This document shows positions 24,072 through 28,319 of a stretch of DNA of 64,000 nt, piece after piece (position 1 is the first letter of the stretch; every line of letters begins with the position of its first letter). A program made the position numbers and the translations under genes. This stretch comes from a virus, in the IMG/VR virus record IMGVR_UViG_3300035663_000001, positions 1 through 64,000 of that record, one strand, 5' to 3'. The notes below the pieces were generated by a model, which worked only from the letters and a program-made list of their open reading frames with translations, had not been told where the DNA came from and ran no database searches.

Positions 24072-24286
24072 ACTCCCAGTCACCTTAAGAGGGAGCTCAG
24101 GTTTTCCCAGCGACTAAATTTTTTCGCACACCCCTAAGGTTGCTGATGCGGTACGGATGAACGAAAGGATGGTACGCGGATTGGGGCAATCTCCCAGCGA
24201 CTAAGTTTTGTCACCTACACCTAACGATGTAACACGATGCGTTAGGTTCCCAGCGACTAAGTTTTGTTTCACATGCCTATGATTGA

Positions 24287-24360
24287 GGCCCGGTGACGGA
24301 ATGGCAGACGTGGCGGTTTTAAAAACCGCTTTCTTGTGGGTTCGACTCCCACCCGGGCCA
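24287..24360 (+). tRNA. tRNA-Leu(TAA), short variable region
   Basis: GGCCCGG/CCGGGCC acceptor, GCGGT-TTTAAAA-ACCGC anticodon arm, GTGGG-TTCGACT-CCCAC T arm. Confidence 0.85.
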
Positions 24361-24394
24361 CCCAGCGACTAAGTTTTGTCAAAGGAGACTACAG

Positions 24395-25213: not shown

Positions 25214-25598
25214 TCAAACCTACTACTGGCGTTGACTCAACCTCCTACGTATAGGAATAAGTGATGCCACCGCGCTAGGATAGTTTCGTCATCCCTCCGG
25301 ACCACCAGCTCGTAAAGTAGGCTGCGGTGGCTGACGAAACGATAACCCTGATAGTTTACCTGGTCCAGATGTGAACAATCAAAAAAGTGTGTGTTTTGGT
25401 GTAAAACTCTATCACAGATAATAATAGGGTTATCGATATGTGAAGTTCACATTACATAGTTGCATCCTCGGGAAGCATCCGCTACGCTGACAGTCTCAGG
25501 TAGCTCTAGGTGTTAATCCCCTTCTGTCCCATGAGACGCCGGACATATCTGGGTCATTGTCGTGACAGCCCCTAATCCATTAACCCTAAAACGGGTGG
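25214..25598 (+). ncRNA. Candidate large structured ncRNA
   Basis: ORF-free, several long-range complementary segments, ends at a terminator. Confidence 0.5.
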
Positions 25599-25631
25599 GC
25601 CTCGCTTCTCTTCGGAGAGCGAGGCTTTTTT
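25599..25631 (+). terminator. Intrinsic terminator
   Basis: GCCTCGCT.CTC-TTCG-GAGAGCGAGGC plus T6. Confidence 0.85.
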
Positions 25632-25641
25632 CGTTTCTACC

Positions 25642-25815
25642 TTGGCCTTGTCTTTGCATTCTGCAATCTGTAGACCACTTACTTGATTCCTCTCATCTAT
25701 CACACATACTCTTACCTTGGCATACCTATTGCTAATAACAGGAAGTAGACCAGTAAAGTTTTACCAGGAATGCACTTAATGGCATCTTAATTGCAATTAG
25801 CATAAAGTGAGCCAC
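25642..25815. promoter_or_regulatory. Three head-to-head sigma54-like site pairs
   Basis: 25642-25678, 25717-25753, 25779-25815. Confidence 0.65.
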
Positions 25816-25904
25816 GGAGTCACTCACCTAATACGCGTAAAGGGAATTCCCAGCGACTAAATTTTGTCACCTACCCCTATGGTTGCCGATGCGACACGAT
25901 ACGA

Positions 25905-25920
25905 TGGCACGCAGGTTGCT
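25905..25920 (+). promoter_or_regulatory. Consensus sigma54 site TGGCACGCAGGTTGCT (second copy 26076-26091)
   Basis: Exact match to TGGCACG-N4-TTGC(A/T). Confidence 0.65.
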
Positions 25921-26152
25921 AAGTCAACTTCCCAGCGACTAAGTTTTGTCACACTCTCCTAAGGGTGCGAGACGATGCGAAAGGATGAACGCGCTACTGG
26001 CACGCTACTGGCTGACACGGTTTCCCAGCGACTAAGTTTTGTCACTCTCCCCTAAGGATGCAAGACGCGAGCGGATGGCACGCAGGTTGCTAAGTCAACT
26101 TCCCAGCGACTAAGTTTTGTCGCTCTTCCCTCATGATGCGAGACGGTAACTA

Positions 26153-26204
26153 AGGCGAAACCATCTGAGATGGTCTAATGGTAGGAACCATTACTGACGA
26201 GCCT
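26153..26204 (+). ncRNA. Type II hammerhead ribozyme (minimal)
   Basis: AGGC-GAAA-CCATC/GATGG-TC^-TAATGGT/ACCATTA-CTGACGA-GCCT; predicted cleavage after 26175. Confidence 0.85.
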
Positions 26205-26296
26205 AACTAGTCTACGAAACACCAGCACTAGTCTTAAGTGTCGTGTTGGTCACTAGGAGGGATCATACCCTCGGCAGTGGTGATACTACTTGGCCA

Positions 26297-26362
26297 GTCT
26301 TCTGGCATGACGGAGCCTTGGTGTGGTAACCAAGCCAGGTTCGATACCTGGAGAAGACCCCA
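26297..26362 (+). ncRNA. Minimal tRNA-like element
   Basis: GTCTTCT/AGAAGAC acceptor, CCAGG-TTCGATA-CCTGG T arm, non-canonical D and anticodon arms, ends C-CCA. Confidence 0.6.
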
Positions 26363-26426
26363 GCGACTAAATTGTGATCTCGAAGTCTGACATGGTGTGA
26401 GACTTCCCTACAGAAAGGATACCAGT

Positions 26427-27041
26427 ATGACGCCCAAGATGTTTTTGCACAAGTCGGGAACCAAAGCGGCGGCTTCGGCCAGTGCCTTCCTGGCGGCTCA
26501 CCGGACCTTTCTGGAAACGGGAGAGCTCTATCCGGTCACCGGCCCGATTCTGGCCAAGTTGGATGCCAAAGAGCTGATGCCGACTCCGGCCTTGTCGGAA
26601 TTGCGTCAAGTGATTCTCAATCACATGATTGCCTCCGAAGTGTCCAAGTTGGAGCGAGCGCACGAAGTGACGGAGCGCACGCCCAAAAACTGGCAAGTCA
26701 CCATCTATACCTCCGAAGGCAAGGTGGCGCAACGTTTCAAGACCGAGGACCAGGAATGGGTGGATCTGGTGGCCGAATTCGACCAGCCCCAAGAGGCCGA
26801 TCGTTGGGCGGACCGACGATTGTTCGAGGGTGAGCACGATTGGTTTGCCGTGGTGTCTCATGCCACGCAACTCAACAAGCATGGTCAACTGCTCTCCTCT
26901 ACCATCACTCGTCAGGATGCCATGGCACGAGTCTTGGCATCCAAGCCTGGACCCGTGATCAAGGGTCAAGCCAAGTCGTCGGGTCGGTTGGGATGGGGCG
27001 TCAAGTCGAAACCCAGTGTCAGCAAGTTTTCGGCGGGCTGA
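26427..27041 (+). CDS. Hypothetical protein
   Basis: AAGGA RBS; flanked by repeat motif. Confidence 0.75.
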   Translation: MTPKMFLHKSGTKAAASASAFLAAHRTFLETGELYPVTGPILAKLDAKELMPTPALSELRQVILNHMIASEVSKLERAHEVTERTPKNWQVTIYTSEGKVAQRFKTEDQEWVDLVAEFDQPQEADRWADRRLFEGEHDWFAVVSHATQLNKHGQLLSSTITRQDAMARVLASKPGPVIKGQAKSSGRLGWGVKSKPSVSKFSAG

Positions 27042-27874: not shown

Positions 27875-28023
27875 GACTCAATGACAGAATGGTTTCTGTT
27901 TCCAATTAGTACTGATTGGAAGTGAATACTCAGGGTGAGTGTTCACCGACTCAGTATGTTGGCCAAAGGATCGATACGATGGTCAGCATATCTATGAGTG
28001 TAGGTTCGATTCCTACCTGAGTC
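27875..28023 (+). ncRNA. Expanded tRNA-like RNA, copy 1
   Basis: GACTCA/TGAGTC acceptor, ACAGA-ATGGTT-TCTGT D-like arm, three internal hairpins, GTAGG-TTCGATT-CCTAC T arm. Confidence 0.7.
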
Positions 28024-28028
28024 TCCCC

Positions 28029-28140
28029 CCCGACAGAATGGTTTCTGCTGTTTATCTACAGGTTCGCTGAGCTTGATTCTGAGGTACGGGTCGACACGAC
28101 TCAGAGTTAAGTCTTGGTGTAGGTTCGATTCCTACTCGGG
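28029..28140 (+). ncRNA. Expanded tRNA-like RNA, copy 2
   Basis: CCCGA/TCGGG closing stem, same D-like and T arms. Confidence 0.6.
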
Positions 28141-28149
28141 CTTTTTTTT

Positions 28150-28319
28150 GACTCAATGACAGAATGGTTTCTGTTTCCTGTAATTAGTTCACATTAGTTC
28201 ACACAGGAAGTGAACACTCAGGTGTACCCTCAGTGTTTGCCGACTCAGTTAGGTTCTGGTTAAAAGGTACACGTTTGCCAGCATCTAGCTGAGTGTAGGT
28301 TCGATTCCTACCTGAGTCA
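28150..28319 (+). ncRNA. Expanded tRNA-like RNA, copy 3
   Basis: Acceptor, D-like and T arms identical to copy 1, divergent internal hairpins. Confidence 0.7.

What the first reader, a model, noticed from the sequence alone, without database searches (positions are those of the whole stretch)
26153..26362. Promoter array -> hammerhead -> structured spacer -> mini tRNA-like element
Seen: downstream of four tandem motifs, a minimal hammerhead (cut after 26175) is followed by hairpins (ACCAGCAC/GTGTTGGT; GAGGG/CCCTC) and a ~66 nt cloverleaf ending in CCA. Inference: a small RNA whose 5' end is set by self-cleavage and whose 3' end is set by tRNA-processing enzymes (RNase P would release ~26176-26296). 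This resembles a natural precise-end RNA expression cassette, or a Y-RNA-like tRNA mimic.
Basis: partly seen in the sequence, partly recalled or inferred. Interest (0 to 1): 0.75.

Follow-up and report, generated by a model that had tools for sequence, protein, structure and literature searches.

The report
Hammerhead, folded RNA, mini-tRNA phage cassette
A huge uncultured lake phage carries a gene-free unit, also kept by a related phage, in which a self-cutting hammerhead RNA is followed by a folded RNA and a stripped-down tRNA look-alike, so it probably cuts out its own small RNA, whose job is unknown.

Summary
26153-26204 is a complete type II hammerhead that would cut after C26175. It has every core base and three stems. 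None of 100 shuffled genomes gave a match as good. It is also the top hit (42.1 bits) of a model built only from hammerheads of other phages.

26297-26362 is a 66-nt tRNA look-alike. It has a 7-bp acceptor stem, a T arm, a 3-bp D-like hairpin, a 6-nt "anticodon" loop and an encoded CCA. tRNA models reject it.

A related phage contig (L023) has the same cassette:
- the spacer is 92 nt in both;
- the distance from the cut to the acceptor end is 183 nt in both;
- 12 of 29 comparable base pairs changed on both sides and still pair;
- the loop CUACGARAC is conserved.

That stretch instead pairs with the hammerhead's own 3' half in both phages, which suggests refolding after the cut.

The "promoter array" is three sigma-54-type cores, each placed to start transcription at a CCCAGCGACTAA motif.

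No RNA ends were mapped. Cleavage, RNase P processing and function are inferred. This scan has noted similar cassettes in other lake phages. None turned up in the papers or Rfam 15 as I searched them.

The parts
25600..25634 (+). Intrinsic-terminator-like hairpin plus T run. It ends the upstream operon; about 800 gene-free bases follow.
   Evidence: No ORF of 60 aa or more starts between 25735 and 26367.
25849..25863 (+). Motif copy 1 (CCCAGCGACTAA...), the first of four tandem copies.
25905..25945 (+). Exact sigma-54-type core TGGCAC-N5-TTGCT (25905-25920), followed by motif copy 2 (25931-25945). The -12 GC lies 12 nt before the motif's first C.
   Evidence: The predicted start site rests on sigma-54 promoter geometry as I recall it.
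25998..26038 (+). Sigma-54-type core with 1 mismatch (25998-26013), then motif copy 3 (26024-26038), at the same spacing.
26076..26116 (+). Exact sigma-54-type core (26076-26091), then motif copy 4 (26102-26116). This is the nearest likely transcription start, 51 nt before the hammerhead.
26153..26204 (+). Type II hammerhead ribozyme. [quoted passage not shown] The predicted cut lies between C26175 and U26176.
   Evidence: Model R1 scores it 42.1 bits, E 2.2e-11, the top hit in the window. The homologue L023:3744-3790 scores 47.9 bits.
26207..26256 (+). Conserved spacer domain. An outer helix (26207-11 with 26252-56) encloses the conserved loop CUACGAAAC (26212-20) and hairpin P1 (26221-28 with 26243-50).
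   Evidence: L023 has the same layout at the same distances from the cut, with unrelated stem sequences and the loop CUACGAGAC.
26257..26296 (+). Distal spacer. In the window it can form GAGGG/CCCTC and a second hairpin. Alternatively it pairs with the 3' strand of stem I plus CUGA (26180-26204).
   Evidence: The hairpins are not conserved in L023. The alternative pairing is present in both phages.
26297..26362 (+). Mini tRNA look-alike.
- acceptor: 26297-303 with 26352-58
- D-like hairpin: 26304-06 with 26315-17
- arm: 26317/18-22 with 26329-33/34, 6-nt loop
- T arm: 26335-51
- discriminator: C26359
- CCA: 26360-62
   Evidence: Rejected by tRNA models. The homologue is L023:3883-3945.
26359..26373 (+). 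Fifth motif copy. It overlaps the discriminator and CCA of the tRNA look-alike and heads the next gene.
   Evidence: The same tRNA(-like)-then-motif junction occurs at 24361 and 28320.
26427..27041 (+). Downstream gene (P0003, 204 aa, no Pfam family). I used it to find related phages.

Best explanation
This is a conserved, self-processing non-coding RNA cassette of a group of huge freshwater phages.

1. Transcription starts in the tandem sigma-54-type promoter and motif array, with the nearest start at about 26102.
2. The first 52 nt of structure (26153-26204) fold into a compact type II hammerhead as they are made. The hammerhead cuts after C26175. This removes a leader of about 74 nt, which ends in a 2',3'-cyclic phosphate, and leaves a 5'-hydroxyl on the downstream RNA.
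3. The downstream RNA runs 183 nt to the end of the acceptor stem, or 187 nt with the encoded C-CCA. It then refolds. The 3' strand of stem I and the CUGA box pair with the distal spacer. This locks the product and leaves an apical domain that displays the conserved loop CUACGARAC.
4. Its 3' part is a mini tRNA look-alike without a D arm or a standard anticodon loop. It keeps only what host tRNA-end enzymes read: a 7-bp acceptor stacked on a T arm, plus CCA.
5. The look-alike most likely marks the 3' boundary of the small RNA and the 5' boundary of the next message. That message begins with the same CCCAGCGACTAA motif as promoter-started transcripts. RNase P may also split the unit at 26296/26297 into a 121-nt RNA and a 62-66-nt mini-tRNA.

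Shown: the sequence fit, statistical rarity, membership in a phage hammerhead class, and conservation of the whole unit with compensatory changes.

Inferred: transcription start, cleavage, refolding, processing by tRNA enzymes, and any function of the RNA.
For: Hammerhead:
- All core bases and three stems are present.
- The descriptor finds 4 sites on + and 0 on -. With a descriptor as strict as the observed site, 0 of 100 shuffles gave a site.
- Model R1 was built from 7 hammerheads of 5 other phage contigs. It ranks 26153-26204 first of 23 matches in the window (42.1 bits, E 2.2e-11). The window's three other hammerheads follow, and the fifth match scores only 12.4 bits.

Conservation:
- The P0003 family led to L023, where P0003 is 60% identical.
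- L023 holds a hammerhead at 3744-3790 (47.9 bits), then a 92-nt spacer, then a 63-nt mini tRNA look-alike.
- The distance from the cut to the acceptor end is 183 nt in both.
- Of 29 pairs comparable in register, 15 are the same, 2 changed on one side, and 12 changed on both sides and still pair.
- The outer helix and P1 sit at the same relative places with unrelated sequences, and the loop CUACGARAC is kept.

Refolding:
- Cognate 5'-segment/distal-spacer duplexes are -20.4 and -22.9 kcal/mol.
- That energy was reached by 18 and 5 of 1000 shuffles, and by 39 of 3213 and 10 of 3478 natural 40-nt windows.
- Swapped partners give only -9.4 and -14.1 kcal/mol.

tRNA look-alike:
- T arms with a G53-C61 pair number 13 on + and 0 on -. 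Nine lie in tRNAs. The other four are all in this early region.
- All 3 tRNA or tRNA-like 3' ends in the early region that are followed by a gene abut the motif directly.

RNA: one metatranscriptome contig covers 26201-26358 and stops at the last acceptor base, while a DNA contig (26302-26709) runs on. This falls below even the tool's 'weak hint' standard.

Context: self-cleavage of three type II hammerheads in vivo and in vitro is reported in PMC8782182, and phage hammerheads flanking genes in PMC3088659 (passages read).
Against: - No RNA 5' or 3' end was mapped. Logan contigs cannot show ends, and only one RNA run at depth 3 covers the element.
- That contig runs unbroken across 26296/26297, so at least some molecules are not cut there, if it derives from RNA at all.
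- Rfam's Hammerhead_II model does not score this site. It also misses the window's three covarying hammerheads and all of the compact ones in 10 other phage loci.
- The hammerhead has no evident loop-loop or pseudoknot contact of the kind Perreault et al. found critical for fast cleavage. It may therefore be slow.
- The conservation rests on one relative only.
- The alternative pairing was noticed first and tested afterwards, and its register differs by about 5 nt between the two phages.
- The L023 look-alike has no encoded CCA, and it sits after a different gene.
- The tRNA-like descriptor alone is not rare. Shuffles averaged 0.44 hits per genome, and 66 of 200 had at least one.
Confidence: 0.6

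Rival explanations
1. Pure punctuation. The hammerhead and the tRNA look-alike are only cutting signals that free the downstream P0003 message from its long multi-promoter leader. The RNA between them is a by-product with no role of its own.
For: - The window's other three hammerheads sit directly before ribosome-binding sites.
- So do most of the 18 hammerheads in the 11 other phage loci.
- Perreault et al. proposed that such hammerheads process long phage transcripts (PMC3088659, passages).
- tRNA or tRNA-like 3' ends abut the motif and a gene at 24361, 26359 and 28320.
- Plant mitochondrial t-elements work this way (PMC1920247, passages).
Against: - The spacer keeps its exact length (92 nt), its helix positions and a 9-nt loop sequence across phages that differ in most stem bases. 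Cutting signals alone do not need that.
- In the window no gene lies upstream to be separated from, because the previous operon ends at a terminator.
- The alternative pairing covaries.
Confidence: 0.2
2. Regulated ribozyme switch. The alternative pairing between the distal spacer and stem I plus CUGA competes with the hammerhead fold before cleavage. Cutting, and with it expression or stability of the downstream message, would then be tuned by folding kinetics or by a factor that binds the CUACGARAC domain.
For: - The alternative pairing is present and cognate-specific in both phages.
- In L023 the uncut precursor's lowest-energy fold is the alternative one, -75.1 against -68.1 kcal/mol with the hammerhead enforced.
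- Perreault et al. raise regulated cleavage for phage hammerheads (PMC3088659, passages).
Against: - In the window the uncut precursor's lowest-energy fold is the hammerhead itself.
- The hammerhead is transcribed about 60-90 nt before its competitor, which favours cutting first.
- No ligand or protein is known.
Confidence: 0.1
3. Y-RNA-like partner of the phage's own Ro60 protein. The 5'/3' stem made by refolding, together with the tRNA-like module, would tether or gate Ro60, as YrlA does in bacteria.
For: - The record encodes a Ro60 ortholog (517 aa; TROVE 37.5 bits, vWA_Ro60 65.3 bits).
- No T arm other than the tRNA cluster's, and no Rfam match other than tRNA-clan matches and two far-sub-threshold cis-regulatory matches, lies next to it.
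- The only non-tRNA T arms in 128 kb are this element and three others at 27.9-28.3 kb.
- M. smegmatis YrlA has a 7-bp acceptor, is cut by RNase P and receives CCA (PMC4201824, passages).
Against: - The element lies 67 kb from the Ro60 gene, whereas nearly all YrlA genes lie within 4 kb of it (PMC4201824).
- The GNCGAAN0-1G motif is not conserved. The nearest strings are UACGAA and UACGAG.
- There is no tRNA-like D arm, and the tRNA module is terminal rather than internal.
- The 480-kb relative has Ro60 but no hammerhead of this class.
Confidence: 0.07
4. Relic. A decayed tRNA gene lies next to a chance or dead hammerhead-like string, and neither is functional.
For: - tRNA models reject the look-alike.
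- The acceptor-plus-T-arm descriptor alone occurs by chance 0.44 times per shuffled genome.
- The hammerhead lacks a recognisable tertiary contact.
Against: - 12 base pairs changed on both sides and still pair, at identical spacing, in a relative whose neighbouring protein is only 60% identical.
- The hammerhead scores 42 and 48 bits in the two phages.
- None of 100 shuffles gave a site as good.
Confidence: 0.03

Closest known systems
Type II hammerhead ribozymes flanking genes in phages and prophages (Perreault et al. 2011, PMC3088659; Rfam RF02276)
   Same: It has the same catalytic core, the same permutation (stems I and III closed, stem II open), a phage setting, several copies per genome and the gene strand.
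   Different: - It is compact: a 4-bp open stem II and a 7-bp stem I with a 3-4 nt loop.
- It lacks the loop I/3'-tail pseudoknot of the published consensus.
- It scores below Rfam's cut-off.
- It is followed by a conserved non-coding RNA and a tRNA look-alike, not by a ribosome-binding site.
t-elements of plant mitochondria (PMC1920247)
   Same: Both are non-canonical cloverleaves that keep the T arm and acceptor stem. In plants their ends coincide with mRNA ends, and they are cut by RNase P and RNase Z and receive C/CCA additions.
   Different: - Those are organellar and are not paired with a ribozyme.
- No ends are mapped here.
- The T loop here fits GGTTCRANYCC at 10 of 11 positions.
HDV-like theta ribozymes next to phage tRNAs (PMC10879173)
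   Same: A small self-cleaving ribozyme is linked in cis to a tRNA-shaped RNA in tailed phages, and is proposed to make an RNA end without a host nuclease.
   Different: - Theta ribozymes are HDV-like.
- They lie downstream of real, often suppressor, tRNAs and trim the 3' trailer.
- Here a hammerhead lies 121 nt upstream of a non-decoding mimic.
- The word 'hammerhead' does not occur in that paper.
Bacterial Y RNAs of the YrlA type (PMC4201824)
   Same: Both are non-coding RNAs with a tRNA-like module. The M. smegmatis form has a 7-bp acceptor, is cut by RNase P and gains CCA. Some phages encode Ro60, and this phage does too.
   Different: See the membership test. The location and the Ro-binding motif were tested and not met, and a D arm and an internal tRNA module were read from the sequence and not found.
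MALAT1/mascRNA, T4 stable RNAs in the tRNA cluster, and synthetic ribozyme-guide-ribozyme or tRNA-guide arrays (all recalled, not looked up)
   Same: They share the logic of defining RNA ends with a tRNA-shaped signal and/or a self-cleaving ribozyme.
   Different: They are eukaryotic, lack a ribozyme, or are man-made. None combines a natural hammerhead with a tRNA mimic in one conserved phage unit.

Membership tests
Hammerhead ribozyme, type II | Core bases C3 U4 G5 A6 N7 G8 A9, G12 A13 A14, the A15.1-U16.1 pair, and H17 at the cut site | tested here: met
   CUGACGA lies at 26194-26200, GAA at 26157-59, the A26160-U26174 pair is present, and C17 is 26175. The L023 copy has the same core with CUGAUGA.
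Hammerhead ribozyme, type II | Three helices around the core, with stems I and III closed by loops and stem II open | tested here: met
   The unconstrained lowest-energy fold gives exactly this, both for the element alone and within a 259-nt context.
Hammerhead ribozyme, type II | Conservation with compensatory changes in relatives | tested here: met
   Stem I has 2 pairs changed on both sides and 1 on one side against L023. A model built from 7 hammerheads of other phages scores it 42.1 bits. Only one true relative was available.
Hammerhead ribozyme, type II | Score at or above Rfam RF02276's gathering cut-off (37 bits) | tested here: not met
   There is no match at E <= 10. The same search misses the three covarying hammerheads of this genome, and Rfam finds none in 10 other phage loci. 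The model therefore does not cover this compact class.
Hammerhead ribozyme, type II | Tertiary contact between stems I and II (a loop I/3'-tail pseudoknot in the published type II consensus) | tested here: inconclusive
   By eye, UAGG (26182-85) could pair with CCUA (26202-05), but only by breaking stem II. Nothing equivalent exists in L023 or in the compact class.
Hammerhead ribozyme, type II | Self-cleavage | not testable with these tools
   This needs in vitro transcription or RNA-end mapping.
Canonical tRNA | Detection by tRNA models | tested here: not met
   ARAGORN makes no call. RF00005 gives no match at E <= 10.
Canonical tRNA | A 7-bp acceptor stem, a 5-bp T stem and a 7-nt T loop of the TTCRA type | tested here: met
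Canonical tRNA | A 4-bp D arm, bases 8-9 and 26, a 7-nt anticodon loop with U33, and a variable loop | tested here: not met
   The D-like hairpin has 3 bp and follows the acceptor directly. The loop has 6 nt, GUGGUA here and UUAGUC in L023, so no anticodon is conserved. The variable region is 0-1 nt.
tRNA-like processing signal (t-element kind) | A non-canonical cloverleaf that keeps the acceptor stem and T arm | tested here: met
tRNA-like processing signal (t-element kind) | RNA ends coincide with the element's ends | not testable with these tools
   The only data are one RNA contig ending at 26358, where a DNA contig runs on. Contigs cannot show ends.
YrlA-type Y RNA | Encoded within about 4 kb of the Ro60 gene on the same strand | tested here: not met
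   The Ro60 gene lies at 92936-94486 of the record, on the same strand but 67 kb away.
YrlA-type Y RNA | A GNCGAAN0-1G motif near the 5' end | tested here: not met
   I read the sequences of both phages. No such string is conserved. The conserved loop reads CUACGARAC.
Sigma-54 promoter | TGGCAC-N5-TTGCW core | tested here: met
   Exact cores lie at 25905 and 26076, and a core with one mismatch at 25998. The window has 44 matches with up to 2 mismatches, against 22.95 expected.
Sigma-54 promoter | An enhancer-binding activator | tested here: inconclusive
   No PF00158 match was found in the 128-kb record. The record is an estimated 28% of the genome, and the host may supply the activator.

The most novel reading that the evidence does not exclude
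The roughly 187-nt product is the missing RNA partner of the phage-encoded Ro60 protein, a new terminal-tRNA-module kind of Y RNA. Its 5'-hydroxyl end would be made by a ribozyme and its 3' end by tRNA enzymes.

A bolder companion idea is that the leader cut off by the hammerhead, which ends in a 2',3'-cyclic phosphate, feeds an RtcR-like sigma-54 activator that drives the phage's own sigma-54 early promoters. RtcR is activated by RNA fragments ending in cyclic phosphate (PMC7790460, passages read).
Probability: 0.07. Interest if true: 0.85.

Novelty: new variant of a known kind. Interest (0 to 1): 0.62.

Why it matters
What bacterial and phage hammerheads are for is still called unclear in the 2019 review (PMC6765202, passages read).

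This unit pairs a ribozyme with a tRNA-shaped signal, conserved as one piece. That arrangement makes a direct test possible: the RNA between two defined cuts can be detected, deleted or pulled down.

It would also be a natural counterpart of the ribozyme and tRNA tricks that engineers use to make RNAs with exact ends. It would show that phages use minimal tRNA mimics as processing signals, as plant mitochondria do.

Tried and rejected
Searches for relatives that found nothing useful:
- blastn and megablast against 50,697 phage records found no match.
- The exact stem I/core pattern gave 0 hits in viral contigs.
- The motif pattern gave 2 single hits in viral contigs, which I did not pursue.
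- P0003 alone found no relative in viral contigs.
- Two metagenome scans gave 0 hits and one apparent chance hit, L011.
- The cassette pattern in viral contigs gave L023's contig again plus one chance hit inside a gene, L026.
- The P0003 family gave no hit in genome contigs.
- The neighbouring 144-aa protein has only one homologue, on a 984-base contig.

RNA-structure steps that failed or were set aside:
- RNAalifold on the MAFFT alignment of the two cassettes was out of structural register in the spacer.
- A script that used that alignment failed. I replaced it with helix-by-helix coordinates.
- A second hammerhead around CGAAAC at 26216 was rejected, because A15.1 and U16.1 cannot pair.

RNA runs:
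- Parts of the stretch without cover in the three RNA runs say nothing.
- No 'place where many molecules begin or end' was reported.

Other negative results:
- Rfam at E <= 10 over 25500-26600 gave only a narK match of 15.7 bits, which I took as chance.
- No RtcB and no sigma-54 activator were found in this 28%-complete record.
- No Y-RNA-like RNA or T arm lies beside Ro60 in the 480-kb relative.
- The first domain of P0002 has no homologue in the length range searched.

Not-in-print claims rest on the searches. Supplements were closed. Perreault's Dataset S1 and Chen's supplementary tables could hold this compact hammerhead class or phage Y RNAs.
Full report
SETTING. The window is the first 64 kb of a 128,541-base IMG/VR virus record, judged 28% complete. 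Its DNA is held by many lake-water runs. A P0003-bearing phage record of 480,838 bases (L024, 45% identity over P0003) suggests a very large phage. An intrinsic-terminator-like hairpin ends an operon at about 25600-25634. About 800 bases follow with no ORF of 60 aa or more and no sigma-70-like promoter. They run up to the gene at 26427 (P0003).

THE "PROMOTER ARRAY". CCCAGCGACTAA occurs 21 times in the window (up to 2 mismatches) against 0.2 expected, all on +. It occurs 26 times on + and 0 times on - in the whole record. Four copies stand in tandem at 25849, 25931, 26024 and 26102, and a fifth at 26359.

Copies 2 to 4 are each preceded by a sigma-54-type core: exact at 25905 and 26076, and one mismatch at 25998. 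The -12 GC lies 12 nt before the motif's first C. By the usual sigma-54 geometry, which I recall rather than looked up, transcription would start at the motif.

The relative L023 uses a variant motif, CCTAGCGACTAA. It has 15 copies on + in 10.6 kb and none on -. The more distant L024 shows a different recurring string before its genes (by eye). I cannot tell whether the motif is itself a promoter or a common 5' leader.

THE HAMMERHEAD. 26153-26204 has every conserved core base and three helices, and C26175 is the cleavage base. A descriptor scan of the whole record finds four sites, all on +. The other three (30603, 31549, 35954) are mutual homologues with covarying stem III and sit just before ribosome-binding sites.

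Shuffled genomes gave a mean of 0.06 sites with the lax descriptor (6 of 100 had one). A descriptor as strict as the observed site gave none in 100.

Rfam does not see any of the four. To test membership another way, I searched viral contigs with the stem I/core string of the other three hammerheads:
- 11 contigs matched.
- They hold 18 descriptor-positive compact type II hammerheads, most of them between a stop codon and the next ribosome-binding site.
- Rfam recognises none of these either.
- I used the 7 of the 18 that are exactly 52 nt long, from 5 contigs, to build model R1.
- In that alignment 12 of 17 pairs changed on both sides. The 100% pairing is by construction, because the sequences were picked by the descriptor.

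R1's best match in the window is 26153-26204, full length, at 42.1 bits and E 2.2e-11. The other three hammerheads follow (34.7, 34.5 and 31.0 bits), and the fifth match scores only 12.4 bits. So this is a member of a compact type II hammerhead class common in phages. Type II hammerheads near phage genes are in print (PMC3088659). Three bacterial ones were shown to cleave in vivo and in vitro (PMC8782182).

A RELATED PHAGE HAS THE WHOLE CASSETTE. P0003 has 74 homologues. An alignment of 35 of them found two viral loci.

L023 (60% identity over P0003) has a hammerhead at 3744-3790 (47.9 bits). It shares stem II and the core with the window's copy, but stem I is different and still paired. After it come 92 nt, then a 63-nt mini tRNA look-alike.

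Helix by helix:
- The spacer is 92 nt in both.
- The distance from the cut to the acceptor end is 183 nt in both.
- An outer helix lies at relative positions 32-36/77-81 in the window and 31-36/75-80 in L023.
- Hairpin P1 starts at relative position 46 in both, with unrelated sequences.
- The loop between them reads CUACGAAAC in the window and CUACGAGAC in L023.
- Of 29 pairs comparable in register, 15 are the same, 2 changed on one side, and 12 changed on both sides and still pair.

In L023 the cassette follows a different gene, the homologue of the window's 27385-27816 gene. It is followed by a further T-arm element before the next motif, so the module has moved or been duplicated. The 480-kb relative has no hammerhead of this class.

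REFOLDING. In both phages the lowest-energy fold of the cut product pairs the 3' strand of stem I plus the start of the CUGA box with the distal 40 nt of the spacer.

| Measure | Window | L023 |
|---|---|---|
| Cognate duplex energy (kcal/mol) | -20.4 | -22.9 |
| Shuffles reaching it, of 1000 | 18 | 5 |
| Natural 40-nt windows reaching it | 39 of 3213 | 10 of 3478 |
| Own 5' segment with the other phage's distal spacer (kcal/mol) | -9.4 | -14.1 |

This test was made after I had seen the fold, and the register differs by about 5 nt between the phages, so I rate it as suggestive. In the window the uncut precursor prefers the hammerhead fold. In L023 it prefers the alternative by 7 kcal/mol. Cutting during transcription followed by refolding is the simplest reading. 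A switch is the rival reading.

THE tRNA LOOK-ALIKE. 26297-26362 folds without constraints into these parts:
- a 7-bp acceptor stem;
- a 3-bp D-like hairpin directly after the acceptor;
- a 5-6 bp arm with a 6-nt loop;
- a T arm;
- discriminator C and CCA.

tRNA models reject it. The loop is not conserved (GUGGUA here, UUAGUC in L023), so it does not decode. What is kept is the acceptor/T-arm minihelix. By established knowledge, that is the part read by RNase P, the 3'-end enzymes and the CCA-adding enzyme.

The record has 13 T arms with a G53-C61 pair, all on +. Nine lie in tRNAs. The other four are this element and three at 28000, 28119 and 28295. L023 holds two further mini forms of 51 and 63 nt, one with an encoded CCA.

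In the window, tRNA-Leu (24287-24360), this element and the 28242-28318 element are each followed at once by the motif and a gene. Cutting at the tRNA 3' end would therefore give the next message the same 5' sequence as a promoter start. The closest described analogue is the plant mitochondrial t-element (PMC1920247).

The acceptor-plus-T-arm descriptor alone is not rare by chance, at 0.44 hits per shuffled genome. The case rests on the comparison with L023.

RNA DATA. Three metatranscriptome runs hold small parts of the region as Logan contigs. One contig (158 nt, depth 3) covers 26201-26358, runs across 26296/26297, and stops at the last acceptor base. A DNA contig runs on from 26302 to 26709. 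This is one run only, and contigs cannot show ends. I take it as no more than a hint that the unit is transcribed and not fully split.

Y-RNA IDEA. The record encodes a Ro60 ortholog at 92936-94486, and so does the 480-kb relative. The Rfam matches in the 12-kb region around the record's Ro60 gene are tRNA-clan matches 1.9-4.7 kb downstream, the lowest-scoring of them (tRNA-Sec model, 33.3 bits) below its cut-off, and two far-sub-threshold cis-regulatory matches 1 and 3.1 kb downstream. The only T arms on the gene's strand belong to the tRNA cluster 3.4-4.7 kb downstream, with two loose T-arm pattern matches on the opposite strand about 4.2 kb upstream. The 3.3-kb loci around the relative's Ro60 gene gave no Rfam match and no T arm. 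The YrlA criteria I could test, proximity to the Ro60 gene and the GNCGAAN0-1G motif, are not met (PMC4201824, passages read). I keep this as a low-probability bold reading.

PRIOR NOTES AND LITERATURE. This scan's earlier notes describe a hammerhead, folded RNA and tRNA-mimic cassette, and ribozyme- or tRNA-mimic-punctuated operons, in other lake phages. None shares sequence with this one. I did not test those notes. My paper searches found no description of a hammerhead linked to a tRNA mimic in phages. The theta-ribozyme paper is the nearest, and it does not mention hammerheads.

VERDICT. This is a new variant of known kinds: phage type II hammerheads and tRNA-like processing signals, joined here in one conserved unit with a structured RNA of unknown function.

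Noticed in passing
G000:C1:92936-94486 (L028:4936-6486), outside the window: The phage encodes a Ro60/Rsr ortholog (TROVE 37.5 bits, vWA_Ro60 65.3 bits). The 480-kb relative has one too. No Y-RNA-like RNA was found beside either.
   Followed up: partly
window 28677-30566: P0002 (629 aa) has two tandem copies of a domain with a GGAVR(D/E) motif. The ESM Atlas places the first copy with Gad2-like (Gabija anti-defence 2) nucleotidyltransferases at 0.95. Pfam PolyA_pol scores only 13.4 bits, below its cut-off. The gene lies just after the tRNA look-alike cluster.
   Followed up: partly
L012-L022 (11 viral contigs): These hold a compact class of type II hammerheads: a 4-bp open stem II, a 7-bp stem I with a 3-nt loop, and no pseudoknot. 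There are 18 copies, most of them between a stop codon and the next ribosome-binding site. None reaches an Rfam 15 gathering score.
   Followed up: partly
window 27875-28319: Three tandem elements each end in a unit of about 75 nt made of an acceptor stem, one long hairpin and a T arm (27948-28023, 28070-28142, 28242-28318). Each is preceded by a D-arm-like hairpin. In L023 an element of this kind directly follows the hammerhead cassette.
   Followed up: partly
L023:990-1040 and L023:2760-2822: L023 has two further mini tRNA look-alikes, of 51 and 63 nt, with the same acceptor sequence. One has no middle arm at all. The other has an encoded CCA and is followed directly by a ribosome-binding site.
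   Followed up: no
window 24249-24375: A real tRNA-Leu (24287-24360) is flanked on both sides by the CCCAGCGACTAA motif, and the 3' copy starts right after the discriminator base.
   Followed up: no
L028:8210-8580 (record 96210-96580): A motif copy and a textbook sigma-70-like TTGACA/TATATT pair precede two tRNA-shaped genes that ARAGORN-type models score poorly. One scores 33.3 bits on the tRNA-Sec model, below its cut-off. They sit at the head of the tRNA cluster.
   Followed up: no
L024:4000-4960: The 480-kb relative repeats a different short string (GCTCCCATTCACGG) before its genes, where this phage has CCCAGCGACTAA. This suggests lineage-specific promoter or leader motifs.
   Followed up: no
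window 55943-56018: There is a tRNA with anticodon CTA (amber-reading). Recoding of TAG was not examined.
   Followed up: no
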